The notes below the pieces were generated by a model. It made no database searches and was not told the DNA's origin. It saw only the letters and a program-made list of their open reading frames with translations. A stretch of 64,000 bases of DNA from the NCBI GenBank assembly GCA_963844695.1, contig CAWJPL010000035.1, positions 1,457 through 65,456 on the forward strand, written 5' to 3'. Positions 15,256 through 54,748 of the stretch are shown here, one piece after another. Every line of letters starts with the position of its first letter. The stretch's first letter is position 1. This DNA comes from an uncultured Actinomycetes bacterium. Lineage in GTDB: Bacteria > Actinomycetota > Actinomycetes > Streptosporangiales > Streptosporangiaceae. A program made the position numbers and the translations under genes.

Positions 15256-15470
15256 GGTTCTGTCGCCATTTAGACCAGGATCTCGTAGGCAATGTGACAA
15301 CCCAGCTCCCCGGCATAGGTGCTGGTAAATGGGCCTACGCCGGCAGCATAGCGACCGTGCCGCCGTGGGCCACGTAGTCCCGTCTCGTCTCTGGCCTTCT
15401 GCTGGTGAGCCCTCCGGAAACAAGGACTTGTGGGGCTTCTGTGGGGCTCGGCAAGGCACGGACGGGCTCG
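15256..15470 (+). repeat. island distal-arm repeat, copy 1 (homologous to 46128..46342)
   Basis: Collinear with the 46-kb copy. The ungapped 114-nt core 15357..15470 versus 46229..46342 gives 99/114 identical by my manual count. Confidence 0.75.
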
Positions 15471-15662
15471 GTGCTTGCGCCGGGTGCGGAGAGCTGAGGC
15501 AGCCGTCCCGAAACGGTCGGGCTGCCGGATCGCTTGCAGCCAGGCGGACCAGAAAGTCCCCGGAGGAACTCCGGAGCGGTGTCGGATCGGGGCCGGGGTG
15601 TTCGTCGCAAGGATGAGAGGCCGCCCACCAGGGGCGCCCCCAAGGAGGATGGAACCGCGATC

Positions 15663-16274
15663 ATGAAACTCACGACCATCACGCAAATCACCGTCGATGG
15701 AGTGGTGCAGGGAAACGGCGCCGCGTCGGATGAGGACCGCAGGAACGGATTCGAGCGCGGCGGATGGGCCAAAGGGGCGGGCGACGACGAGACCAGGACG
15801 TTGATCACCCAGACCTACCAGCGAGCCGACGCGTTCCTGTTCGGCCGGCGGACCTACGAGCTCTTTGCCGGCTCCTGGGGAGCGATCGAAGAGATGCGCG
15901 CCCACCCCATCGGCGTGGCGCTGAACAAGACACCCAAGTACGTCGCGTCGACCACCCTCACCGAACCGCGCTGGGCGGACACGACCGTCCTGTCCGGTGA
16001 CCTCGCGGCGGCCGTCGGCCGGCTGAAGGCCCAGCCGGGCGGTGAACTGCAGGTGCACGGCAGCGGCACCCTGATCCGCTGGCTGGTCGACAACGACCTC
16101 GTCAACGAGATCACCCTGCTCATCGTCCCCGTGGTCCTCGGCCAGGGCACGCGGCTGTTCCCCGGCACCGGCCCGGACATGGCGCTTGACCTGGTCGAAT
16201 CGCGAGCCGACTCGAAGGGCGTAACGATCCAGGTCTACCGGCCGGCCGGGCGCCCTCAGTATGCGACCAGCTGA
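15663..16274 (+). CDS. dihydrofolate reductase family protein (RibD C-terminal domain-like)
   Basis: ATG 15663 follows AAGGAGGA. Sequence MKLTTITQITVDGVVQGNG...FLFGRRTYELFAGSW...LQVHGSGTLIRWL...LLIVPVVLGQGTRLF. Confidence 0.85.
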   Translation: MKLTTITQITVDGVVQGNGAASDEDRRNGFERGGWAKGAGDDETRTLITQTYQRADAFLFGRRTYELFAGSWGAIEEMRAHPIGVALNKTPKYVASTTLTEPRWADTTVLSGDLAAAVGRLKAQPGGELQVHGSGTLIRWLVDNDLVNEITLLIVPVVLGQGTRLFPGTGPDMALDLVESRADSKGVTIQVYRPAGRPQYATS

Positions 16275-33527: not shown

Positions 33528-33571
33528 TGGTCAGGGGCGGGGTCGAACCGCCGACCTTCCGCTTTTTCAGG
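33528..33571 (+). repeat. direct copy of the tRNA-Phe 3' half (att-type repeat)
   Basis: tggtcaggggcggggtcgaaccgccgaccttccgctttttcagg is the 43-nt core of 54555..54597 with one extra T in the T-run. Confidence 0.85.
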
Positions 33572-44306: not shown

Positions 44307-44972
44307 CGCGTCCCCCCAGGACTGCCGAAAGCCTGGCGATCAGCCCAAGGGCATGCTAGCCCTGACAGCCAGCTGCCGCTCCTGGCCAGTCCGCCTCCTT
44401 GCCGGTCTCCCGATAGGCCGCACCCCTCCGGAGCGGTCTCCCCGCGACTGGTCGTACCCGTCCACGGCGCAGCTATCTTATCCTGGCCTGACTGATCCGC
44501 TCACGACGATAAATCCCACCCGGAGACTGACCGGGAACTGGTTCAGAACCTTGAGACGGTCCGGGCCAGCTCCAGTCCGGACCGTCGAGTTCCCCGGCAT
44601 CGACCAGCCCGTGCAACGCTAATCCTGCAATGGATCGATGGGAAAGGCGAGCTAAAGGTAGTGGATTGTGTCTCGCTGCACCCCCCGCGGGGGCAGCTAC
44701 CGTGCCGCTGGCCAAACTCGACGTCTGCAAATAACGCTCATGCCGAATCGAGTGCAAGAGGCGCACTCAATTCGGCTACTTGTGAGCGAGTCTTAGCACG
44801 GGTCTGGCCCGTCTTGATGACAGGACCACCAGGCGCGGTGAGCCCGTCGGCTACCGGCATCGCTGTCGGCCCGTGTGGCGGCAGACACGAGCGCACGACT
44901 GGTCCCCGCAGGGCGACGTGCCGCAGCCTCCGGGGCTTCTGAGCAGGAGTCGAGGTGGGGCTGTCCCGGGTT

Positions 44973-45921
44973 TCAGGTGACGGGGTCCATGATGCGGTCG
45001 TAGCAGCGGCGGGCTCGTGTGCTGCGGGCGCTGGCGCCGTAGCATCTGCGGGGAGGTCCACCCGTTTAGTTCCATCAGGTCCCCCTCCGCGCCGCCACGG
45101 TCCAGCCAGGTGTGGCTGAAATGATGACGGAATCTGTGCGGGTGCACAGCCACCCCGCACTGGTTGCCTCGGCGCACAATCATCTGGTAGATGCCATTCG
45201 CCGTCATCGGGGCCCGGTTGTTGACTCCCAGCCACAGTTGCGGCCGGTATGCCTGGGCGTGCCGGGCCCGGACCCGGATGTAGCGGTCAAGGGTGACGGC
45301 GGTCTGGTGGCTGACCTTGACGATCCGCGCTTTACCGCCCTTGCCCCGGACCGTGATCTCCCGCTGCCACAGGTCAACGTCGCTGCGCTGCGCATCCTCC
45401 GGGTCGTAGACGATCCCGGCCAGTTCCGACAGCCGGATCCCCGTCGCCCGGAACACCGCGATGACCGCAAGGTCGCGGCGCTGGGCAAACGACCGACCCG
45501 CGCAGACCTTCTCCAGCTTCGATAGTTCTCCGCTCGTGAAAACAGGGATGAGCTTCTCGGTCACCCTGGGCGGCCGGAGCCTGGCCATCGGGTCCGTGAG
45601 ATCTTCCTCACCGGCCCACCATTTGAAGAACTGCTGCAGAGCGCGGTACTGGTTGCTGGCATAGGAATCGCTGTAGCGGCCCAGCAGCCACACCATCCAC
45701 CGCTGGATGTCCTGCCCGCTGACCTGCTCCTACTTGGCCCGGGATGTCTGCGGGATCAGGTGCGCCGCGGCGAACCACTGCACCGCCTCGGTGTACATCC
45801 GCACCGTCTTGCCCGACTTTCCCTCGGCCATCAGGCAGAGCCGGAACGAGGCGATCTCGGGCTGGAACACTCTCGCGGCCAAGGGCTCAGGCTGCCGCGA
45901 GCACGGTCCCGGCACGCTCAT
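44973..45921 (-). pseudogene. int: tyrosine integrase, inactivated (TGG->TAG at 45730..45732; 8-nt deletion near 45041 removing the catalytic-Tyr codon from the frame)
   Basis: Collinear with the intact copy 53375..54391. The sequence RAK*EQV compares with RTRWEQV. The sequence gccgtagcatctgcgg compares with gccgtagcgtcgcagcatctgcgg, so ...QMLRRYGASARS becomes ...QMLRRQRPQHTS. Confidence 0.85.
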
Positions 45922-46084
45922 AGTTTGTCTCTCTTCCTGCGGCCGAGCTGCGGCGCAACTCTCTGCAGGCCAGCGTTTCCGCTGGTCAGAAACTCTCAGC
46001 AAAGGTGAGATCGTGGCCGTCATGCGTCTTCTCTTTCCTGCCATTCGCGCAGGTGAGAGGGCTGGCCGATGCTACGAGAAGAGG

Positions 46085-46127
46085 TGGTCAGGGGCGGGGT
46101 CGAACCGCCGACCTTCCGCTTTTCAGG
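46085..46127 (+). repeat. direct copy of the tRNA-Phe 3' half (att-type repeat), 43/43 identical to 54555..54597
   Basis: tggtcaggggcggggtcgaaccgccgaccttccgcttttcagg. Confidence 0.9.
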
Positions 46128-46342
46128 GGTTCTATCTCCCTTTACGACCATGATCTCGTAAATATCATGCAGCCCAGCTCACCGGCATAAGGGCTGGTCA
46201 ATAGGCTGACACCACAATCATAGCCACTGTGCCGCCGTGTGCCGCGTAGTCCCGTTTCGTCTGTGGGCTTCCCGTGGTGAGCCCTCCGAAAGAAAGGACT
46301 TGTGGGGCTTCTGTGGGACCCGGCGAGGCGCGGACGGGCTCG
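46128..46342 (+). repeat. island distal-arm repeat, copy 2 (homologous to 15256..15470)
   Basis: See copy 1. The 114-nt core is 46229..46342. Confidence 0.75.
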
Positions 46343-46809
46343 TCGGCGAGCATCGCGTGCATCTAGTCGTCAGTGCTGGTCCTGGCTAGCCGACGTCCCG
46401 TCATCCCGCCGGAGTGTGTGACTGGGCATGACCGAATGGGAGTGGTTCAGGCTGGCATGCCGTACTCACTGATGTTGTGCCTGGTAAGGACGGCAGAGGA
46501 TAGAAGACTCGAACTCCTTCTCTAGCGTTCGCTCGGGCCGGCATGTGACCTGCGGTCCTTGTCAGCTGTGGGTCTGGCTGAACGGCCGCGCGCGAGAGAG
46601 AATGACTGTCGATGGTGGGCGGGCATCAATCAGGCACGATTTCTTCGGGAGCGGAAGTAGGGCGGCGGATCGCGTGGCTGCCTGAGACCGCCGCCGAGGC
46701 GGCGCAAGAGCACGTCGAGGACAGGGACGGGCGATGCGCGGCGGCGAGATCGTTCAGTTGAATGTATTGCGACGTGGTTCTGGCAGGTAGCTTTCCGAGG
46801 GGAAATGCG

Positions 46810-49800
46810 GTGTGGTTCAGGCTGCTCGGGGCGGTAGAGGTTTCCGCGGACGGAACCTCGCTTCCGCTGGGTGGCCCCAGGCAGCGGTCGGTGCTGGCCG
46901 ATCTTGCCCTGCATGTAGGCCGGGCTGTCCCTACGGCGCAGTTGATCGTCGATGTGTGGGGGGAACGGCCGCCAAGCTCGGCGGTCCACACCCTGGAGAG
47001 CTATGTCTCCCGGCTGCGCCATGTGCTGAACGCCTCCGGTGCGGCTGGCGCCGTGGTGGTCAGCAAGTCGGCCGGGTACATGCTCGACGCAGTACCAGGA
47101 AACGTCAACGTGTGGCGGTTCCGGGAACTGGCCGCGAGAGGGGGCGCGGCGGTCGAGGCGGGTGATGCGGCCACGGCGGCGGCACTGGTCGGCGCCGCGA
47201 TCGACTTGTGGCGCGGCCCGGCGCTCGCAGATATCAGGGAGGCGGCGTTTGCCCCGCCCGCGGTGCAGCGGCTGGAAGAGGAGCGGCTGACCGCGCTGGA
47301 GAACCTAATGGAGGCGCGGCTGGCGTTGGGGCGGCACCGCGAGCTCGTGGCCGAGCTTGAGGCGCTGATCGCCGGTTCCCCATACCGCGAGCATTTCCAC
47401 GCGCAGCTGATGCTGGCGTTGTACCGTTCGGGCCGGCAGGCTGATGCGCTGGCCGCCTTCGGCCGCGTCCGCGATACGCTGTCCGGCGAGCTTGGCATCG
47501 AGCCTGGCCGGAAGCTGTGCGAGCTTCAGCATGCGGTGCTGCTGCAGGCGCCCGAACTGGAACCGCGCGTCGCCGCTGCCCGCCTGGGCCCGCGCCAGAT
47601 GGCTGACCGGCAGCCAAGCGCACCGGCTGCGCCGCCGGCGGCGGGGCCTGTCCGTGCGCGTGGGGGCCGCGCCTGGCGGTGGGCTGCGGCAGCTGCGGCG
47701 CTTGGCCTAGCTGCCGCAGCGGTCGTGCCGATCCTGGTGGGCATGGGGGCCGCCCATGGCAAGACGCTTGCGGGCGGCGTGGGTGAGGTGTCCGCGGCCG
47801 GCGGTATCGCCCGCAGCGTGGCCCTGCCAGGCCCACCGGGTGCCGCCGTGGCGGCGGATGGCTCGGTATGGGTGACCAGCCCCGAGGGCAACGTGGTTTA
47901 CCGGATCGACCCGGTCACCGGGTCGCTGGTGCAGACCATACCGGTGGGCTCTGGCCCCAGCGCGATCACCGCCAGCGGTGCCGATATCTGGGTGGCCAAC
48001 ACCCTGGACGGTACGGTCTCCCGGATCAGCGCGGCCGCTAACGCGGTCGTTCAGACCGTCAATGTCGGCACCGAGCCCACCGGCATCACCGCGGACGGCG
48101 GTTCCATCTGGGTAGCAGATGCCTCGGCCAGTACCTTGTCAGCGCTCAGCTCCGTCTCCGGGCGGCTGACATCTACTATCCCTTTGCCGTCGCCGCCGTT
48201 CGGGGTCGCCTTTGGTGCTGGCTCGGTGTGGGTGACCAGCCCGGCGGACAACAACGTCACCCGGGTCGATCCGCGCACCGGCCAGCCGGGCCAGCAGATC
48301 ACGGTCGGTGCCGGGCCTACGGCTGTCGCGTTTGGCCTTGGTTCTGTGTGGGTCGCCAACAGCCTGGATAGCACAGTCTCCCGTATCGATCCCGGCACTG
48401 ACTCCGTCGCTGCCGTGATCCCGGTCGGGGATGGCCCGGACGCGCTGGCGATCACCAGGGACTCGGTCTGGGCAGCGGACCGGCTGTCGGGCGCGCTGAC
48501 CAGGATCAGCTCCGGCGGCGCCAGCCCGGTGAGCGCGATCCTCCTGGGCGGCAGCCCAGTGGCGCTAACAACCGCCGGTGACCGGGTCTGGTTCGCGGTC
48601 GGCGCTGCGAGCTCCGCCCGGCGGGCTGGCGGCACGCTGAATGCAGTCGTCAGCTACCCGCCCACGTCGATCGACCCTGCCCTGCAGTACCCCCAGATGC
48701 CGCCTCAGTTCTCCGACGCCACCTATGACACGCTTGTGACGTTCCAGAAGACCGGTGGCAGCGCCGGCCTGCAGCTGGTACCTGACCTGGCCCTTGCCAT
48801 GCCTGCCGTGACCGGCGGTGGGACCGTGTACAGGTTCACGCTGCGGCCCGGCCTGCGGTATTCGACGGGGCAGCTAGTGCGCCCGGAGGATTTCCGTTAC
48901 GCGATCGAGCGCGTCCTGGACCTCGACCCGGAAGCGGGCGCCTTCCTCGACGGGATCTCAGGGGCGTCAGCCTGCGTCCCGGGGAAGCTGTGCGACCTGG
49001 CCCGCGGGGTAACGGTCAACGGATCCGCCAGAACTGTGACGTTCCGTCTGAGCGCACCAGACCCTGACTTCCTGTACAAGCTGGCCTTCGGGTTCACCGC
49101 ACCGGTACCGTCCTACATCCCGGCCCGCGATGCCGGCCGTGATCCTGTGCCAGGCACCGGCCCCTACATGATCACCCGGTATGTTCCCGGCCGCCGGGTC
49201 GTGTTCGCGCGCAACCCGCACTTCCGGGAATGGTCGGCGGCCGCCCAGCCCGCGGGCTTCCCCGATCGCATCGTCTGGACCTTCGGCACCTCGCTCACCC
49301 GTGAGGCCGCCGAGATCGAGGCCGGGCAGGCAGACTGGACTAACGACCCGCTGCCCGGCCTCGCCGGGCTCAGAGCTCGGTTCCCAGCCCAGGTGCACAT
49401 CAGCACGCTGCCCGAAATCGTCTTCGCCGCGTTCAACACTCGGGTGGCGCCGTTCAACGACCCCCGGGTCAGGCGGGCGTTCAGCCTCGCCGCTGACCGT
49501 AACCGCTTCGTCGCAGCACTGGGCGGCCCCGGCCAGGCCGAACCGACCTGCCAGATCCTGCCGCCGGGCATTCCGGGCTACCGGCCCTACTGCCCGTTCA
49601 CCGCCGACCCCAGCGCCTCTGGCGCCTGGGTCGGCCCCGACCTGGCCGCCGCCCGCAGGCTTGTGGCCGCGTCCGGGACCAGGGGCATGCGCGTCACCGT
49701 GTGGTCCGACGACCAGGCCCCGGACGGCACTACCGCTGCCTTCATTGTCTCCGTCCTGCACATGCTCGGCTACCGGGCGGCTGCGCACGTCGTTCCGAAC

Positions 49801-50202
49801 GAAGCACTGGGCCGGGCGGTGAACGACTCGCGCCGCCGGATCCAGGCAACCGACGGCGACTGGGGCGCGGACTACCCCTCGGCGTCGGATTTCTTTGACG
49901 AGTTCTTCCGCTGCTCGGCCTTTCGCCTCGACGACCCCGCCGCCACCCGGAACGGCTCGTTCTTCTGCGACCCCGCGGCTGACCGGCTGATGAACGTCGC
50001 AGACAGCGAGCAGCTGACCAGCCCACTTCAGGCCGCAGGGACATGGGCAGCTGTCGATCGGGCGGTCACACGGGCGGCTCCGTGGGTAACCCTGGCCGTC
50101 CTGAAGAACACCGATTTCCTGTCCGCCCGGATAGGCAATTACCAGTACAACCCGTTCTGGGGCGTGCTCCTGGATCAGCTGCAGATCCGCCCTCGGCGAT
50201 GA
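46810..50202 (+). CDS. membrane-anchored SARP-type regulator: OmpR/PhoB-like wHTH + BTAD, one TM helix, beta-propeller (NHL/YVTN-like) repeats, family-5 solute-binding (SBP_bac_5) domain
   Basis: VWFRLLGAVEVSADGTSLPLGGPRQRSVLADLAL... (SARP wHTH). LWRGPALADI...HFHAQLMLALYRSGRQADALAAFGRVRDTL..ELGIEPG (BTAD). RARGGRAWRWAAAAAALGLAAAAVVPILVGMGAA (TM, about 47676..47750). About 6-7 repeats of the form VWV(T/A)....V.RIDP.....TIPVG.GP.AI. A C-terminal region of about 530 aa looks like a peptide/nickel SBP. The start is GTG 46810 or ATG 46762. Confidence 0.85.
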   Translation: MWFRLLGAVEVSADGTSLPLGGPRQRSVLADLALHVGRAVPTAQLIVDVWGERPPSSAVHTLESYVSRLRHVLNASGAAGAVVVSKSAGYMLDAVPGNVNVWRFRELAARGGAAVEAGDAATAAALVGAAIDLWRGPALADIREAAFAPPAVQRLEEERLTALENLMEARLALGRHRELVAELEALIAGSPYREHFHAQLMLALYRSGRQADALAAFGRVRDTLSGELGIEPGRKLCELQHAVLLQAPELEPRVAAARLGPRQMADRQPSAPAAPPAAGPVRARGGRAWRWAAAAAALGLAAAAVVPILVGMGAAHGKTLAGGVGEVSAAGGIARSVALPGPPGAAVAADGSVWVTSPEGNVVYRIDPVTGSLVQTIPVGSGPSAITASGADIWVANTLDGTVSRISAAANAVVQTVNVGTEPTGITADGGSIWVADASASTLSALSSVSGRLTSTIPLPSPPFGVAFGAGSVWVTSPADNNVTRVDPRTGQPGQQITVGAGPTAVAFGLGSVWVANSLDSTVSRIDPGTDSVAAVIPVGDGPDALAITRDSVWAADRLSGALTRISSGGASPVSAILLGGSPVALTTAGDRVWFAVGAASSARRAGGTLNAVVSYPPTSIDPALQYPQMPPQFSDATYDTLVTFQKTGGSAGLQLVPDLALAMPAVTGGGTVYRFTLRPGLRYSTGQLVRPEDFRYAIERVLDLDPEAGAFLDGISGASACVPGKLCDLARGVTVNGSARTVTFRLSAPDPDFLYKLAFGFTAPVPSYIPARDAGRDPVPGTGPYMITRYVPGRRVVFARNPHFREWSAAAQPAGFPDRIVWTFGTSLTREAAEIEAGQADWTNDPLPGLAGLRARFPAQVHISTLPEIVFAAFNTRVAPFNDPRVRRAFSLAADRNRFVAALGGPGQAEPTCQILPPGIPGYRPYCPFTADPSASGAWVGPDLAAARRLVAASGTRGMRVTVWSDDQAPDGTTAAFIVSVLHMLGYRAAAHVVPNEALGRAVNDSRRRIQATDGDWGADYPSASDFFDEFFRCSAFRLDDPAATRNGSFFCDPAADRLMNVADSEQLTSPLQAAGTWAAVDRAVTRAAPWVTLAVLKNTDFLSARIGNYQYNPFWGVLLDQLQIRPRR

Positions 50203-50427
50203 TGCCCCGGCAGGCAGGCCCTCCCCTTCCCGCCAGCACGATCTAGGTTGCGCCAAAGCGCGATCTGCTGGCTGCAGCCTGCCACCTGCGATCCGATCAT
50301 CTTGCGATCAGGCTCCGAGCCAGTTCTGGTTGCCTTGTCGCCACCAGTGGCTGCTGGGGGGCTGCACCATCAGGCTTGCGACCTCCGGCCGTTCGGGAGC
50401 CGCAGCTTGAGTCTTCAGGGGAGAAAC

Positions 50428-52893
50428 ATGAAGCAATCACGTTGGACATCTCGCAGGCTGCCAGGTCCCCGGATGGTTGCGGCGCTGGCGGTGGCTGGCT
50501 GCGCGGCAGTCTCCCTTGTCGTGGCGGGCGGTGCGGTGGCGTCTGGCTCGGCTGCGCCGTTGCCTGGTTCTGTTGCGCCTCGCGCGCCGCAGGCGGCGCG
50601 GTTCGGGGCTTTGCGGTTCGGGCCCGCCCGCCCGGCCGGCACAGGGCAGTCGGTGCTGGATCGGCTGGCCGGCGCGGCTCAGGCCGGGCCGGGTCGGCAG
50701 GGCGGGTTTGTGGTGCTGGGCGGCAGCCCGGGCGCCCCGGCCGCCAACCCCAGGACCGATACCGTTTACATGCCGATCCAGTGCCGTACGAGCTTCTGCC
50801 CCTCCTCAGGCAAGCCTGGGCACGTCGTGGACATCATCAACGCTTCGAAGTGCAACGCCACGATCAGGTCCGGGTGCCGGGTGGTCGCGACGATCAGGGT
50901 CGGCAGCTCCCCGCTGGCGGCTGCCGTCGATGAGCGTACCGACACCGTTTATGTCACCAACGGCAACGACGGCACAGTCTCGGTGCTGAACGGCGCCCGG
51001 TGCAACGCGCGGGTGACCCGCGGCTGCCGGCCGGTGGCGACGGTCAAGGTGGGGAAGGGACCGGTCGCCGCGGTCGTCAACCCGGCCACGCGCACGCTCT
51101 ATGTGGCGAACGTCGCCGCGGGTAGCGTCTCGGTGATCAACGCGGCCAGATGCAACGCCAAGATCACGCGAGGGTGCCGGCGCCCGGCCCGGACAGTGAC
51201 CGACAAGGCCAGCCCGTCCTGGCTCGATGTTGACAGCGCGACCGACACCGTCTACGTGGCGAACAGCGTCACCCCGGGCACCGTGTCGGTGATCGACGGG
51301 GCCGCGTGCAACGGGCACACCGGCCGCGGCTGCGGGCGGGTCCCGGCAACCGTCACGGTGGGTGCCAGCCCCTTCGCGCTCGCCGTCGACCGCGCCAGCG
51401 ACACCGTCTATGTCGCTAACTTCGTCAACGAGTTCAACGGCGGGTCGGTGTCGGTCATCAACGGCGCCCAGTGCAACGCCAAGATCACCTCCGGCTGCGG
51501 CCGCACGCCACCGGCCGTGCCCACCGGCATCGGGACCGGCTTCGTCGCGGTCAACGGCGCCCTGCACACCGTGTTCGCGGCCAATGCGGCCGACGACACG
51601 CTGTCGGCGATCAACACCCGGACCTGCGACGGGACGGTGACATCCAGCTGCGCGACCCGGCCGCCGAACCTGCGGGCCACCTCCCTCCAGGGCCCCGGAT
51701 ACAACTCGTTCCCGGGCGGCTTCGCGCTCCTCCCGAAGGCGGGCACCGCCTACGTGGTGAACATCGGGGGCCGGAACATCGTGTCGGTGACCAGCATCAA
51801 CCACTGCAACGCCACCAGCACCGCCGGCTGCCGCGCCGAGGCGCCTACCGTGCCGGAGGGCGAGTTCCTGTTGTCAGCCGACCCGGCCACCAATACCATC
51901 TACGGCGGCAACCTCAGCCAGCCGGTGATCGACGTGATCAACAGCGCGACCTGCCATGCCCGGCGTCTGGCCGGCTGCGCCCCGGCCGCGGAGATCCCGG
52001 TTCCTGACCGGGGCGCCAACGTCGGGGCAATCGATCACGCCACCCACACCCTGTACGCCGCCGCCCCGTCGTCCGACAACGTGTTCGCGATCAACACCGC
52101 CACCTGCAACGCCGAGCGCACCTCCGGCTGCGCCGCCGCCCCGCCAACCATCAAGATCGGCGCATCCCTCAAAGTGCCGGCCGTCAACCCCGCCACCCAG
52201 ACCATGTACGTGTCCTACGGCGCCAACGCCAACAAGGTCGCGGTCGTCAACGCCGCCACCTGCAACGCCATCAACACCTCCGGCTGCTCGCAGACCCCGG
52301 GCGTGGTCAGAGTCGGCGCCGGCACCGTCATCCTGGGCGTCAGCGCCGCCACCGACACCGTCTACGCCCCCAGCGGGGCGGAGAACGCGGTCGCAGTGAT
52401 CAACGGTGCCACCTGCAACGGGACCGACCATTCTGGCTGCGGGCACCTCGCCGCCACTGCCAAGGTAGGCATCGACCCGTTCGGGGCCGCGGTCAACGAC
52501 CACACCCACACCGTGTACGTGACCAACAACGCCGACGGCGACTCACCCGGCACCGTGTCGGTCATCAACGCCGCCACCTGCAACGCCACCAACACCACCG
52601 GCTGCCACCGGCGGTTCCCCACCGCCGCCACCGGCAACTCACCGCTGCTCATCACCGCGGACACCCGCACCGGCGTCCTCTACATCACCAACTTCTCCAG
52701 CGCCTCGGTGACCATCCTGAATGGAAAACGCTGCAACGCGACGGTCACCAGCGGCTGTACCAAGGCCACGCGCGAGCAGTCGGTCGGCTCGGGACCATCC
52801 GGGCTTGCCGTCAACCCGCGCACCCGCACCATCTACGTCGGCAACGGCTACCTGCCCGGATCCCTGTCAATCTTCAGAGCTACCCGCCGTTGA
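50428..52893 (+). CDS. secreted YVTN-family beta-propeller repeat protein (~13-14 blades, each with a conserved C-x7-C pair)
   Basis: ATG 50428 follows AGGGGAG. Signal/lipobox-like N-terminus MKQSRWTSRRLPGPRMVAALAVAGCAAV. There are 13 units of the form T(D)TVYV(A/T)N...(G)(T/S)VSVIN.A.CNA....GC...(A)TV.VG..P.(L/A)AV. The track ORF starts upstream at 50248. Confidence 0.85.
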   Translation: MKQSRWTSRRLPGPRMVAALAVAGCAAVSLVVAGGAVASGSAAPLPGSVAPRAPQAARFGALRFGPARPAGTGQSVLDRLAGAAQAGPGRQGGFVVLGGSPGAPAANPRTDTVYMPIQCRTSFCPSSGKPGHVVDIINASKCNATIRSGCRVVATIRVGSSPLAAAVDERTDTVYVTNGNDGTVSVLNGARCNARVTRGCRPVATVKVGKGPVAAVVNPATRTLYVANVAAGSVSVINAARCNAKITRGCRRPARTVTDKASPSWLDVDSATDTVYVANSVTPGTVSVIDGAACNGHTGRGCGRVPATVTVGASPFALAVDRASDTVYVANFVNEFNGGSVSVINGAQCNAKITSGCGRTPPAVPTGIGTGFVAVNGALHTVFAANAADDTLSAINTRTCDGTVTSSCATRPPNLRATSLQGPGYNSFPGGFALLPKAGTAYVVNIGGRNIVSVTSINHCNATSTAGCRAEAPTVPEGEFLLSADPATNTIYGGNLSQPVIDVINSATCHARRLAGCAPAAEIPVPDRGANVGAIDHATHTLYAAAPSSDNVFAINTATCNAERTSGCAAAPPTIKIGASLKVPAVNPATQTMYVSYGANANKVAVVNAATCNAINTSGCSQTPGVVRVGAGTVILGVSAATDTVYAPSGAENAVAVINGATCNGTDHSGCGHLAATAKVGIDPFGAAVNDHTHTVYVTNNADGDSPGTVSVINAATCNATNTTGCHRRFPTAATGNSPLLITADTRTGVLYITNFSSASVTILNGKRCNATVTSGCTKATREQSVGSGPSGLAVNPRTRTIYVGNGYLPGSLSIFRATRR

Positions 52894-53374
52894 CACGGCG
52901 GCGGACAGGGCCGCAGCGACCAGCCCTGCTCAGCGATGCCAGGCCCGGCTCAAGGCACGGGTGGGGAGCGTCTGGCCGTCTGGGGATTGATGATCGTGGC
53001 GGTCATGGGTTGGGATTCGCCCACCGAAGCAGACGGGCGGAACCCTGGAGGTGACCGGCCTCTTCGCCGGATCTGACGATGCCCCGAACTTGCCGTTCCT
53101 CGACGCCGACCTGGGCGACTTGAGATTCACGGCTGCTCATAGTGACAATCTGGCGTACCCGGGATGCATGACAACGCTAGGTCGCTGCCCTCCACAAACT
53201 ACGGCAAGCTCCAGACTACGAGTGAATACGCTAGGCAGCGCATAAGCATGCGTTTACGCAATGCACCCAATTCGGCAGATCCGGTTGGATCGGCAAGACC
53301 GCAGTGCTGGCACCTGGTTGCTAGCAGCACGGATCTCCGCTGTCGGTACATGCAGTGTTAGAAGATCATGCACG

Positions 53375-54391
53375 TCACCATGGACGAGCTGATGCTGTTA
53401 CCCATAGGGATGTCAGCGCGTGACGAGAACGGCGATAGGGGCTGATCTCCATGATGCGGTCGTAGGTGCGGCGGGCCCGGGCGCTGCGGGCGCTGGCGCC
53501 GTAGCGTCGCAGCATCTGCGGGGAACTCCAGCCGTTGAGCTCCATCAGGTCCCCCTCTGCGCCGCCCCGGTCCAGCCAGATGTGGCTGAAATGGTGCCGG
53601 AACCGGTGCGGCCAGGCATCCACCCCGCACTGGCGGCCGCGGCGGGCGATCATCTGGTAGATGCCGTTGGCGGTCATCGGGCCCCGGTTATTCATCCCAA
53701 GCCACAGCTGAGGCCGCCACGCCTGCGCATGCTTTGACCGGATCCGGACGTACCTGTCCAGAGCCAGAGCCGCCTCGTGCCCGATCCTGACGATCCGCGG
53801 CCTGCCGCCCTTGCCGCGGACGGTGATCTCGCGCTGCTGCAAGTCGAGGTCGCTGCGGCTGGCGTCGTCCGGGTCGTAGCGGATCCCGGCCAGTTCGCCG
53901 GCCCGGATCCCGCTCGCCTTGAGCACCGCGATCACCGCTGCGTCGCGGCGCTGGGCGAAGGTACGGCCCTGGCAGGTTCTCTCCAGGGCCGATAGTTCTC
54001 CGCTGGTGAACACCGGCACCAGCTTCTCGGCCACCTTCGGCGCGCGCAGCCGGGCCATCGGGTCGGGGATCTGCTCCTCCTCGGCGAGCCATCTGAAGAA
54101 CTGCTGCAGCGCCCGGTACTGGTTGCTGGCATACGCGTCGCTGTACCGGGTCAGCAGATGGACCAGCCACCTCTGCACATCGTGGGCGTCTACCTGCTCC
54201 CACCTGGTCCGCGAGGTGCGGGGGATCAGGTGCGCAGCGGCGAACCATGCCACCGCGTCGGTGTAGGTCCGCACCGTCTTGGCCGCCTTGCCCTCGGCGG
54301 CCAGGTGCAGCCGGAACGAGCCGATCTCAGGCTGGAAAACCCCGGCGTCAAGCGGCTTGCGCCGCCGGGGACACGGTTGCGGGACGGTCAT
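53375..54391 (-). CDS. int: tyrosine recombinase/integrase (intact)
   Basis: SAM-like N-domain (FRLHLAAEGKAAKTVRTYTDAVAWF) and a catalytic domain with RDAAVIAVLKASGIRAGEL (R), HRFRHHFSH (H-x-x-R...H) and MLRRYGAS (Tyr). The plausible start is ATG 54391 (MTVPQPCP...). The ORF is open to 54490. Confidence 0.9.
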   Translation of the reverse strand: MTVPQPCPRRRKPLDAGVFQPEIGSFRLHLAAEGKAAKTVRTYTDAVAWFAAAHLIPRTSRTRWEQVDAHDVQRWLVHLLTRYSDAYASNQYRALQQFFRWLAEEEQIPDPMARLRAPKVAEKLVPVFTSGELSALERTCQGRTFAQRRDAAVIAVLKASGIRAGELAGIRYDPDDASRSDLDLQQREITVRGKGGRPRIVRIGHEAALALDRYVRIRSKHAQAWRPQLWLGMNNRGPMTANGIYQMIARRGRQCGVDAWPHRFRHHFSHIWLDRGGAEGDLMELNGWSSPQMLRRYGASARSARARRTYDRIMEISPYRRSRHALTSLWVTASARPW

Positions 54392-54554
54392 TGTTTTTCT
54401 CTCTTCCTGCGGTTCCGCTGAAGCGCACGCATCCGCGCTTAAGCGTTTCCGCAGGTCAGAGAAGTTAAGAGAAAGCGCATCACGCGCCATGAGAATCCCT
54501 CTCTTCCTGCGATTAGCGCAGGTGAGAGGGCTGGCAGATGCTACGAGAACGAGG

Positions 54555-54628
54555 TGGTCAGGGGCGGGGTCGAACCGCCGACCTTCCGCTTTTCAGGCGG
54601 ACGCTCGTACCGACTGAGCTACCTGACC
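54555..54628 (-). tRNA. tRNA-Phe (anticodon GAA)
   Basis: Manual cloverleaf: GGTCAGG-TA-GCTC-AGTCGGTAC-GAGC-G-TCCGC-CTGAAAA-GCGGA-AGGTC-GGCGG-TTCGACC-CCGCC-CCTGACC-A. Confidence 0.9.
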
Positions 54629-54674
54629 GTGACCGACCGCCGTGACGCAACCATCACGAGCGGTCTGAGCCTAG

Positions 54675-54748
54675 CGGTCCTGACGGGACTTGAACCCGCG
54701 ACCTCCACCTTGACAGGGTGGCGAGCTAACCGGCTGCTCTACAGGACC
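54675..54748 (-). tRNA. tRNA-Asp (anticodon GTC)
   Basis: Manual cloverleaf: GGTCCTG-TA-GAGC-AGCCGGTTA-GCTC-G-CCACC-CTGTCAA-GGTGG-AGGTC-GCGGG-TTCAAGT-CCCGT-CAGGACC-G. Confidence 0.9.

What the first reader, a model, noticed from the sequence alone, without database searches (positions are those of the whole stretch)
50428..52893. Island cargo 2: ~13-14-blade YVTN propeller in which every blade carries a C-N-A-x4-G-C (C-x7-C) hairpin
I count 13 units with the pattern (I/L/V)N-x3-C-N-(A/G)-x4-(G/S)-C, for example INAARCNAKITRGC, INGAQCNAKITSGC and INAATCNATNTTGC. An N-terminal C-x4-C is also present. This gives about 28 cysteines in regular pairs behind a signal/lipobox-like leader (LAVAGC). 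The regularity suggests one disulfide-stapled loop per blade, forming a periodic surface array on a probable double 7-bladed propeller. The regulator next door has propeller blades of similar type but without cysteines. Together with their isolation as the island's only cargo, this suggests the two genes act as one module, possibly a sensor with its target or co-receptor. The function is unknown.
Basis: partly seen in the sequence, partly recalled or inferred. Interest (0 to 1): 0.65.

Follow-up and report, generated by a model that had tools for sequence, protein, structure and literature searches.

The report
Disulfide-looped double propeller with its regulator
This is an exported 14-blade (7+7) YVTN propeller protein in which 13 blades carry an invariant Cys-x7-Cys loop; it belongs to a large uncharacterised family from uncultured soil and peat bacteria, and here it sits next to a membrane-spanning SARP regulator that probably controls it, on a small tRNA-Phe island.

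Summary
The gene at 50428-52893 (+) encodes 821 aa with 29 Cys: C25 in the leader, one C-x4-C, and 13 evenly spaced C-x7-C units (consensus VSVIN-x-A-x-C-N-A-x-x-T-x-G-C).

AlphaFold (pLDDT 85, pTM 0.84) gives 14 four-stranded blades. The best fold matches are tandem 7+7 propellers. Each Cys loop lies between the third and fourth strand of a blade.

The family is large (932 clusters at E<=1e-30) and is seen only in metagenome-assembled genomes of soil and peat Actinomycetota and Dormibacterota. The 26 loop cysteines are essentially invariant down to 36% identity. No curated family model describes it.

The neighbour (46762-50202) is a SARP regulator with one membrane helix, a Cys-free 7-blade propeller and an SBP_bac_5 domain. 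Such a regulator is adjacent in 29 of 78 homologous loci, but only 12 of 80 regulator loci have a Cys propeller. Direct repeats in 11-nt phase, as at SARP sites, lie upstream of the propeller gene in two clades.

Best reading: a surface-tethered, disulfide-stapled binding scaffold whose gene is a local target of the regulator. I could not measure disulfide geometry. The ligand is unknown. This is a new variant of a known kind, of moderate interest.

The parts
50428..52893 (+). Cys-propeller gene: 821 aa, 29 Cys, 14 YVTN-type blades
   Evidence: ORF and translation; TIGR02276 YVTN repeat 45.5 bits against a cutoff of 27.85; AlphaFold pLDDT 85.4, pTM 0.84
50417..50423 (+). Shine-Dalgarno-like AGGGGAG, 4 nt before the ATG at 50428
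   Evidence: read from the sequence
50428..50502 (+). Export leader, residues 1-25: basic n-region (RR), hydrophobic stretch, lipobox-like V-A-G-C25
   Evidence: read from the sequence; most homologues have a lipobox-like Cys, including textbook LAAAC-SG forms; lipidation not tested
50503..50700 (+). Ala/Pro/Gly-rich disordered linker, residues 26-91
   Evidence: pLDDT below 50 for residues 1-91; sequence poorly conserved
50701..51855 (+). Propeller 1: blades 1-7, residues about 92-476, with C119-x4-C124 and Cys loops 1-7
   Evidence: DSSP strand pattern; blade alignment; tandem 7+7 fold matches. The boundary between the two propellers is inferred.
51856..52890 (+). Propeller 2: blades 8-14, residues about 477-821, with Cys loops 8-13. 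The last blade has three strands and is probably completed by N-terminal strand 94-96.
   Evidence: DSSP; this closure ('velcro') is inferred from strand counts
50851..52758 (+). The 13 C-x7-C loops. Coding positions: 50851-50877, 51001-51027, 51151-51177, 51307-51333, 51472-51498, 51625-51651, 51805-51831, 51952-51978, 52105-52131, 52261-52287, 52414-52440, 52579-52605, 52732-52758.
   Evidence: invariant in 196 homologues; frame C-N-(A/G)...G-C conserved and tip positions 3-4 variable
50239..50313 (+). Operator-like region between the two genes. Five CGATC motifs (50239, 50261, 50289, 50294, 50305), four of them in 11-nt phase. Conserved 28-nt box CTGCGATCCGATCATCTTGCGATCAGGC at 50286-50313.
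   Evidence: densest CGATC cluster of the window; 0 of 20,000 shuffles reach 5; box conserved in L001, L010, L012 and L051
46762..50202 (+). Membrane-spanning SARP regulator, 1146 aa: wHTH 46876-47085, BTAD 47110-47541, membrane helix 47674-47754, Cys-free 7-blade propeller about 47779-48681, SBP_bac_5 48775-49917
   Evidence: Pfam and NCBIfam; hydrophobic helix WRWAAAAAALGLAAAAVVPILVGMGAA; six invariant Cys in the SBP domain
46301..46318 (+). Direct heptamer repeat TGTGGGG-CTTC-TGTGGGA, 460 nt upstream of the regulator ATG
   Evidence: same type of box as the TGTGAG-N5-TGTGAG box found upstream of Cys-propeller genes in 12 other loci
53375..54490 (-). Intact tyrosine integrase of the island
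   Evidence: Pfam Phage_integrase plus SAM-like N domains
54553..54628 (-). tRNA-Phe (GAA), the integration site. Its 3' part (54551-54597) is the attL repeat.
   Evidence: ARAGORN, Rfam, repeat D8
46081..46127 (.). attR: exact 47-nt copy of the tRNA-Phe 3' part, marking the far end of the 8.4-kb island

Best explanation
The gene encodes an exported, probably lipid-anchored protein. A leader with lipobox VAGC and a disordered linker of about 65 residues hold a tandem 7+7 YVTN beta-propeller outside the membrane.

Compared with an ordinary 40-residue YVTN blade, such as those of the regulator next door, 13 of the 14 blades carry a 10-12-residue insertion in the hairpin between the two outer strands. 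This insertion is a nine-residue loop, C-N-(A/G)-x-x-T-x-G-C. Its two cysteines most likely form a disulfide. The result would be a ring of stapled loops at the rim of one face of each propeller. The frame is invariant and the loop tips are free to vary.

I read the protein as a rigid, protease- and acid-resistant cell-surface binding scaffold whose ligand is not known.

Its gene is a local transcriptional target of the adjacent one-component regulator. That regulator has a cytoplasmic SARP DNA-binding part, one membrane helix, and an outside sensor made of a Cys-free propeller and a peptide-type solute-binding domain. It would bind the 11-nt-phased direct repeats between the two genes.

In this genome the pair arrived as the only cargo of an 8.4-kb integrase island at tRNA-Phe.

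Shown: sequence pattern, fold class, conservation, synteny, repeat boxes, island structure. Inferred: disulfides, lipidation, DNA binding by the regulator, binding function.
For: - Pattern and invariance: 13 C-x7-C units, kept in 2,705 of 2,716 scored pairs across 196 homologues. The count of 13 holds down to 36% identity. The distant subfamily has exactly 26 Cys. The extra C-x4-C pair is lost only as a pair, 7 times.
- Fold: 14 blades with high confidence. The best PDB fold matches are tandem 7+7 propellers such as Aip1 1NR0. The closest structure by sequence is the Methanosarcina S-layer YVTN propeller 1L0Q.
- Loop position and insertion. Frame conserved and tips as variable as other exposed loops.
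- Export: leaders across the family.
- Synteny: a SARP regulator is adjacent in 29 of 78 loci, in the same-strand or divergent arrangement. All five closest regulator relatives have a Cys propeller. The near-identical contig L159 has the same pair.
- Operator boxes: phased CGATC repeats conserved in 5 loci. A TGTGAGC-TTTN-TGTGAGG box plus a -10-like hexamer lies about 50-60 nt upstream of the propeller ATG in 12 loci, three of which have no adjacent regulator. The same box lies divergent from regulators in 7 further loci.
- A soluble SARP without an outside domain is adjacent in L065 and L070. This favours 'target' over 'outside partner'.
- Metatranscriptome contigs lie on both genes.
Against: - Sulfur-sulfur distances were not measured, and invariant cysteines would also fit metal binding.
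- No -10 hexamer is obvious downstream of the window's CGATC repeats. The window's box differs from the TGTGAG box of the sister clade, so it is unclear which box the window's regulator binds.
- In Dormibacterota the same propeller is fused to a short cytoplasmic segment and a membrane helix directly after an ECF sigma gene. That looks like a sensor rather than a passive product.
- Most members of the regulator family sit next to other proteins.
- No ligand, partner or enzyme activity can be read from the sequence.
Confidence: 0.55

Rival explanations
1. Co-sensor. The Cys propeller is the outside partner of the regulator rather than mainly its product. It would bind the regulator's outside propeller/SBP domain, or sense the signal itself, and gate the regulator's activity or stability. 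Analogies, from my own knowledge, are ToxS for ToxR, LpqB for MtrB, and the outer domain of an anti-sigma factor.
For: - The window's gene order is regulator then partner on one strand, 225 nt apart.
- In 7 loci, mostly Dormibacterota (L034-L037, L056, L057, plus a Streptosporangiaceae locus L062), an ECF sigma gene lies immediately upstream. In the six Dormibacterota loci it overlaps a Cys-propeller gene that carries a cytoplasmic segment of about 45 aa and a membrane helix, the usual layout of an anti-sigma factor.
- The propeller is associated with four different kinds of signalling genes.
- Both proteins expose blades of the same type outside the cell.
Against: - The N-terminal segment matches no known anti-sigma domain.
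- Soluble SARP and STAND-TPR neighbours have no detected outside domain or membrane segment with which to reach an outside partner.
- Promoter-like SARP boxes lie in front of the propeller gene.
- No interaction test was possible.
Confidence: 0.2
2. Recognition array. The 13 loops are the working parts rather than staples. Each conserved disulfide frame presents 2-4 variable tip residues, giving a multivalent binder of a repetitive polymer or of partner proteins (lectin-, adhesin- or inhibitor-like).
For: - Tip positions 3-4 are among the most variable in the protein (2.7-2.8 bits against a mean of 1.70) inside an invariant frame.
- The loops are regularly placed on one face.
- There are many paralogues per genome and tandem copies.
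- From memory, nine-residue disulfide-closed loops act as binding loops in Bowman-Birk inhibitors.
Against: - The tips are no more variable than the other exposed loops of the blade.
- The loop consensus (C-N-A-x-x-T-x-G-C) does not match the Bowman-Birk loop.
- No lectin or inhibitor family matched.
Confidence: 0.12
3. Metal- or redox-active cysteines. The Cys pairs are thiolates that bind a soft metal, or a redox-sensitive array that reports oxidative-folding or thiol stress in the envelope.
For: All 26 Cys are invariant. From memory, membrane-bound one-component regulators such as CadC and ToxR use periplasmic Cys pairs as redox or pH switches.
Against: - The protein is exported into an oxidising compartment.
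- No His/Met/Asp enrichment accompanies the Cys.
- The pairs flank a hairpin tip, as structural staples do.
- No metal-binding family matched.
Confidence: 0.06
4. Enzyme. The propeller is a lyase or lactonase-type hydrolase acting on an extracellular substrate. The substrate's product would then be sensed by the regulator's solute-binding domain.
For: Pfam Lactonase PF10282 is hit above its cutoff (49.7 bits). The regulator's own propeller matches the virginiamycin B lyase family (63 bits against a cutoff of 50). Solute-binding proteins recur next to the family (SBP5 fusion; DctP-like lipoprotein in 6-8 loci).
Against: - The Lactonase match covers only 85 of 344 profile positions and reflects blade similarity.
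- The residues conserved family-wide are all framework residues (C, G, T-x-T-x-Y, D/N). No blade-specific polar cluster stands out.
- YncE and other equivalog models score far below their cutoffs.
Confidence: 0.07

Closest known systems
YVTN-family beta-propeller repeat proteins (TIGR02276), e.g. Methanosarcina mazei surface-layer protein, PDB 1L0Q
   Same: Same repeat family: TIGR02276 at 45.5 bits, 1L0Q at E=6e-21. Four-stranded blades with the T-x-T-x-Y-V-x-N and VSVI(D/N) motifs. Extracellular location.
   Different: 1L0Q is a single 7-blade propeller of 40-residue blades without cysteine loops. Here there are 14 blades of 49-60 residues, 13 with an inserted C-x7-C loop, plus a C-x4-C in blade 1.
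E. coli YncE (PDB 3VGZ; NCBIfam NF052280), the name databases give to homologues
   Same: Exported YVTN-type propeller with weak sequence similarity (E=6e-5). Sources label homologues 'YncE family'.
   Different: The score is 73.7 bits against an equivalog cutoff of 400. YncE has one 7-blade domain of about 350 aa and no Cys loops. The label 'DNA-binding YncE' should not be transferred.
Tandem 7+7 beta-propellers such as Aip1 (PDB 1NR0), Pwp2, Utp21
   Same: Best fold matches over about 770-800 aligned columns. Two seven-bladed rings in one chain.
   Different: Eukaryotic cytoplasmic WD40 proteins with 8-12% identity and TM-scores of 0.3-0.47. The likeness is in architecture only.
SARP regulators (AfsR, ActII-ORF4, DnrI) and their heptamer-repeat operators
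   Same: The neighbour has the OmpR-type wHTH plus BTAD. Direct heptamers at 11-nt spacing lie about 8-9 nt upstream of a -10-like hexamer in front of the propeller gene in related loci, as established for SARP promoters (my own knowledge).
   Different: Known SARPs are soluble and control antibiotic clusters. This one has a membrane helix and an outside propeller plus SBP_bac_5 sensor, and it sits beside single genes for secreted repeat proteins. I found no paper describing this architecture.
Membrane-bound one-component regulators with a partner gene (ToxR/ToxS, CadC) and the MtrB-LpqB lipoprotein partner
   Same: A DNA-binding domain tethered by one membrane helix to an outside sensor, with an exported protein encoded next door (analogy from my own knowledge).
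   Different: No sequence relationship, and a partner interaction was not tested here.

Membership tests
YVTN beta-propeller repeat family (TIGR02276) | Repeat model matched above its curated cutoff | tested here: met
   45.5 bits against 27.85. The profile of the family also hits 1L0Q at 6e-21.
YVTN beta-propeller repeat family (TIGR02276) | Four-stranded blades closing into seven-bladed rings | tested here: met
   AlphaFold gives 14 blades at pLDDT above 90 in the core. Top fold hits are 7+7 tandems.
YncE (NF052280 equivalog) | Whole-protein score at or above the equivalog cutoff; single 7-blade domain of about 340 aa | tested here: not met
   73.7 bits against a cutoff of 400. The protein is 821 aa with 14 blades.
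Lactonase, 7-bladed propeller (PF10282) | Match over the domain, implying the enzyme family | tested here: inconclusive
   49.7 bits exceeds the cutoff of 21.7, but only profile positions 30-114 of 344 are matched. This is blade-level similarity only.
Bacterial lipoprotein | Basic n-region, hydrophobic region and lipobox [LVI][ASTVI][GAS]C | tested here: met
   RR...MVAALAVAG-C25. A lipobox-like Cys is present in most homologues and missing in a few. The hydrophobic stretch continues after C25, so a signal anchor is possible.
Bacterial lipoprotein | Actual cleavage and lipidation | not testable with these tools
   Needs labelling, globomycin treatment or mass spectrometry.
Disulfide-stapled loop | Paired cysteines within bonding distance in the fold | not testable with these tools
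   The model coordinates are not exposed. Indirect support: the pairs flank a hairpin tip, are invariant, and the protein is exported.
Target of a SARP regulator | Direct heptamer repeats at 11-nt periodicity upstream of the gene | tested here: met
   CGATCAT-N4-CGATCAG at 50294-50311, with two more CGATC in phase, conserved in 5 loci. The TGTGAG-N5-TGTGAG box is found in 12 related loci.
Target of a SARP regulator | Regulator binds the repeats and activates transcription | not testable with these tools
   Needs a gel shift or footprint and a reporter assay.
tRNA-integrated genomic island | Integrase next to an intact tRNA; direct repeat of the tRNA 3' part at the far end | tested here: met
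   tRNA-Phe 54553-54628, integrase 53375-54490, exact 47-nt repeats at 46081-46127 and 54551-54597.
Anti-sigma factor (for the Dormibacterota relatives only) | Recognisable anti-sigma domain at the N-terminus | tested here: not met
   No Pfam match at E<=1 for the first 107-110 residues. Only the layout fits: sigma gene, overlapping gene, single membrane helix.

The most novel reading that the evidence does not exclude
The Cys propeller is a new kind of extracytoplasmic sensor module used by several unrelated signalling systems in uncultured soil bacteria: membrane-bound SARP regulators, ECF sigma/anti-sigma pairs and two-component systems. Its 13 disulfide loops would be the sensing elements, either as a redox-sensitive array or as a set of variable recognition tips. 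The membrane-spanning SARP with a propeller plus solute-binding ectodomain would then be a previously undescribed class of one-component receptor.
Probability: 0.17. Interest if true: 0.75.

Novelty: new variant of a known kind. Interest (0 to 1): 0.5.

Why it matters
The family is large, with 932 clusters at 50% identity, and the copies in genome assemblies come only from abundant, uncultured soil and peat lineages of two phyla. No curated model describes it, and databases label it 'DNA-binding YncE', which the evidence here does not support.

A propeller with a strictly kept number of per-blade disulfide loops is an unusual and easily testable design. It would be a natural rigid scaffold with 13 loop positions.

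The neighbouring membrane-spanning SARP, with conserved operator boxes, widens a regulator class known mainly from antibiotic clusters. It also offers a tractable regulator-target pair for study in a cultured actinomycete.

Tried and rejected
- Rfam scan of the island at E<=1 found only the tRNA, so the conserved intergenic box is not a known RNA element.
- Three literature searches found nothing on such a propeller or regulator.
- Foldseek against the PDB gave only generic tandem WD40 folds.
- Pfam on the N-terminal segment of the ECF-linked relatives gave nothing.
- The consensus promoter/terminator scan found no sigma-70-like promoter between the two genes.
- A paired-loss test for disulfide partners was uninformative for the 13 loops, because they are almost never lost. 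It worked only for the C-x4-C pair.
- An exact look-up of the window's protein in the assembly collection found no record.
- I searched for an integrase next to homologues and found none in 78 loci. The island setting therefore belongs to the window and its close relative L159.
- No further gene, such as an excisionase, was found between the propeller gene and the integrase.
- Two read-laying runs failed. The third gave only sparse metatranscriptome contigs, which cannot show co-transcription.
- 'Tat export' was considered because of the RR in the leader. I did not adopt it, because the motif is weak (S-R-R-L-P-G).
Full report
**Observation.** The ORF at 50428-52893 (+) translates to 821 residues with 29 cysteines. 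C25 lies in the leader, C119 and C124 form a C-x4-C, and there are 13 C-x7-C units with 49-60 residues between successive units. The consensus of the units is V-S-V-I-N-x-A-x-C-N-(A/G)-x-x-T-x-G-C. The ATG at 50428 has AGGGGAG 4 nt upstream, and homologues begin at the same methionine. The longer TTG ORF from 50248 is therefore not needed.

**Fold.** Pfam gives only a partial Lactonase propeller match. NCBIfam gives the YVTN repeat above its cutoff and YncE far below its cutoff. I aligned the protein with 53 homologues (A1). AlphaFold on this alignment gives pLDDT 85.4 and pTM 0.84. Residues 1-91 are disordered, and residues 92-821 form 14 four-stranded blades. In each of blades 1-13 the Cys loop lies between the third and fourth strands, the two outer strands. 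By propeller topology this puts all the loops at the rim of one face, the same face as the conserved D-x-x-T-x-T turn. That placement is an inference, not a measurement. The last blade has three strands, and the N-terminal strand 94-96 probably completes it. Foldseek's best PDB matches are tandem 7+7 propellers (Aip1, Pwp2, Utp21 and others) at 8-12% identity. By sequence, the closest solved structures are the Methanosarcina S-layer YVTN propeller 1L0Q (6e-21) and YncE (6e-5).

**What the loop is.** The regulator next door has seven Cys-free blades of exactly 40 residues, with W at 370, 410, 450, 490, 530, 570 and 610. These blades have a short hairpin, VSRIDPxTGxV. The blades of the target protein are 49-60 residues long, and the extra length is the C-x7-C loop in that same hairpin. 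The loop is thus an insertion into an ordinary YVTN blade.

**Conservation.**
- A word-indexed search found 2,269 relatives at E<=1e-5. The top 120 are 57-95% identical, and almost all have exactly 13 C-x7-C units.
- A full profile search of 1.84 billion representatives gave 932 clusters at E<=1e-30. Among the best 150, C-x7-C counts go up to 14 (many are fragments). Three giant YVTN proteins among them have no C-x7-C units.
- In 196 aligned homologues, 2,705 of 2,716 scored pairs are C/C. There are only two single-Cys losses in the 13 loops. The C-x4-C pair is lost as a pair seven times and never singly.
- In the loop, C1, N2, A/G3, G8 and C9 are nearly fixed. Positions 4-5 (offsets 3-4 from C1) are as variable as the other exposed loops, at 2.7-2.8 bits against a family mean of 1.70.
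- The residues conserved across the family are all framework residues. No blade-specific polar cluster suggests a catalytic site.

**Distribution.** All 78 loci recovered from species-representative genomes are metagenome-assembled genomes from soil, peat and palsa. They come from Actinomycetota (Streptosporangiaceae, Solirubrobacterales, Acidimicrobiales) and Candidatus Dormibacterota. Genomes often carry several paralogues, some in tandem. Near-identical DNA occurs in many soil metagenomes. Short contigs from soil and permafrost metatranscriptomes, some 100% identical, lie on both genes. This is weak evidence of expression.

**Export.** The leader is MKQSRWTSRRLPGPR-MVAALAVAG-C25, followed by more hydrophobic residues and A-S-G-S. 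Most homologues have a lipobox-like Cys. One clade has textbook lipoprotein signals (LAAAC-ASGAG), and a few have plain signal peptides without Cys. Export is well supported. Lipidation is probable but unproven.

**The neighbour and the module.** The gene at 46762-50202 encodes an OmpR-type wHTH and BTAD (a SARP), a hydrophobic helix (residues 305-331), the Cys-free propeller (which also matches the Vgb lyase family above its cutoff), and an SBP_bac_5 domain with six invariant Cys. It is thus a membrane-spanning one-component regulator with an outside sensor.

Among the 78 Cys-propeller loci, the adjacent genes are as follows:
- A SARP gene in 29 loci. It is upstream on the same strand, as in the window, in 6 loci, divergent with a 90-300-nt gap in 16-18, and otherwise placed in the rest. 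26 of the 29 carry the SBP5 domain.
- An ECF sigma gene immediately upstream in 7 loci (six Dormibacterota, one Streptosporangiaceae). In the six Dormibacterota loci it overlaps the propeller gene, and the propeller carries a cytoplasmic segment of about 45 residues and a membrane helix.
- A STAND NTPase-TPR protein in 6 loci.
- A DctP-like lipoprotein together with a histidine kinase and a NarL-type regulator in 6-8 loci.

None of the 78 loci has an integrase.

The reverse test used the regulator alignment A2 against metagenome contigs. Only 12 of the best 80 loci have an adjacent Cys propeller, but all five regulators closest to the window's (66-72% identity) do. Other regulators sit beside PD40 propellers, right-handed beta-helix proteins or another Cys-rich repeat protein. 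The pairing is real but not exclusive in either direction.

**Operator boxes.** The 225-nt gap between the two genes holds five CGATC motifs (50239, 50261, 50289, 50294, 50305). Four of them are in 11-nt phase. This is the densest cluster in the 64-kb window, and none of 20,000 shuffles reaches five. A 28-nt box around CGATCAT-CTTG-CGATCAG is conserved in four other same-strand loci whose proteins are only 63-74% identical.

In the divergent clade, a TGTGAGC-TTTN-TGTGAGG box lies 50-60 nt upstream of the propeller start codon in 12 loci. It is followed after about 9 nt by a -10-like hexamer. Three of these 12 loci have no adjacent regulator. The same box lies divergent from regulators in seven regulator-centred loci. 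In total there are 25 hits in 4.6 Mb, nearly all in such positions.

Direct heptamers at 11-bp spacing just upstream of the -10 are the established signature of SARP-dependent promoters (my own knowledge). The window also has TGTGGGG-CTTC-TGTGGGA at 46301, upstream of the regulator gene. Rfam finds no RNA family in the island apart from the tRNA. These data favour the reading that the propeller gene is a transcriptional target of the regulator.

**Island.** An exact 47-nt repeat of the 3' part of tRNA-Phe (46081-46127 and 54551-54597) brackets the integrase (53375-54490), the regulator and the propeller. No other gene is evident in the island. A third, slightly degraded copy at 33534-33570 and an integrase pseudogene at 44851-46044 show an older island in tandem. 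Contig L159 carries the same cargo at 97% nucleotide identity, with integrase remnants and different downstream genes.

**Explanation.** I propose a surface-tethered tandem propeller stiffened by 13 disulfide-closed hairpin loops. It would serve as a binding scaffold and be expressed under the control of the adjacent membrane-spanning SARP (confidence 0.55). The main rival is a co-sensor role (0.2), suggested by the anti-sigma-like fusions. Readings in which the loops are recognition elements (0.12), metal or redox sites (0.06), or the protein is an enzyme (0.07) are less supported.

**Comparison and novelty.** The protein is a member of the YVTN repeat family. It is not YncE, whose cutoff it misses by a wide margin. 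No Pfam or NCBIfam model captures the Cys-loop subfamily, and I found no paper on it or on a membrane-spanning SARP with this ectodomain. I class it as a new variant of a known kind, of moderate interest (0.5).

Noticed in passing
window 33534-33570, 44851-46044, 46081-46127: A second, older island lies in tandem at the same tRNA-Phe site. There is a third, slightly degraded copy of the tRNA 3' repeat at 33534-33570. An integrase pseudogene is split over two frames (44851-45696 and 45730-46044, minus strand), directly left of the middle repeat.
   Followed up: partly
window 15349-15470 (box at 15429): A 120-nt stretch, 85% identical to L159 975-1095 (the counterpart there of window ~46220-46340), occurs a second time in the window. 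It includes a TGTGGGG-CTTC-TGTGGGG direct repeat and lies just upstream of an ORF that I read, from the sequence alone and without a family search, as dihydrofolate-reductase/RibD_C-like (15534-16274, +). It may be another site for the same regulator family.
   Followed up: no
Such regulators sit beside varied secreted repeat proteins: PD40 propellers, right-handed beta-helix proteins, and a Cys-rich 'WNGxxW' repeat protein with no Pfam match (L136:2581-5313).
   Followed up: partly
L034-L037, L056, L057 (Dormibacterota): Here the Cys propeller carries a cytoplasmic segment of about 45 residues and a membrane helix. Its gene overlaps the end of an ECF sigma factor gene, which is the layout of an anti-sigma factor, but no known anti-sigma domain is detected.
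   Followed up: partly
L159 (JGI contig Ga0599180_0003277): A contig 97% identical to window 46197-53707 carries the same regulator-propeller pair. Its integrase is degraded, and different mobile-element-like genes (HTH_17) lie downstream. This shows the island in a second genomic state.
   Followed up: partly
window 46000-54700 in runs X25-X28: Short contigs from soil and permafrost metatranscriptomes lie on both the regulator and the propeller gene. Two of them match with no differences (51120-51273 and 51359-51510). Coverage is too sparse to show transcript ends.
   Followed up: partly
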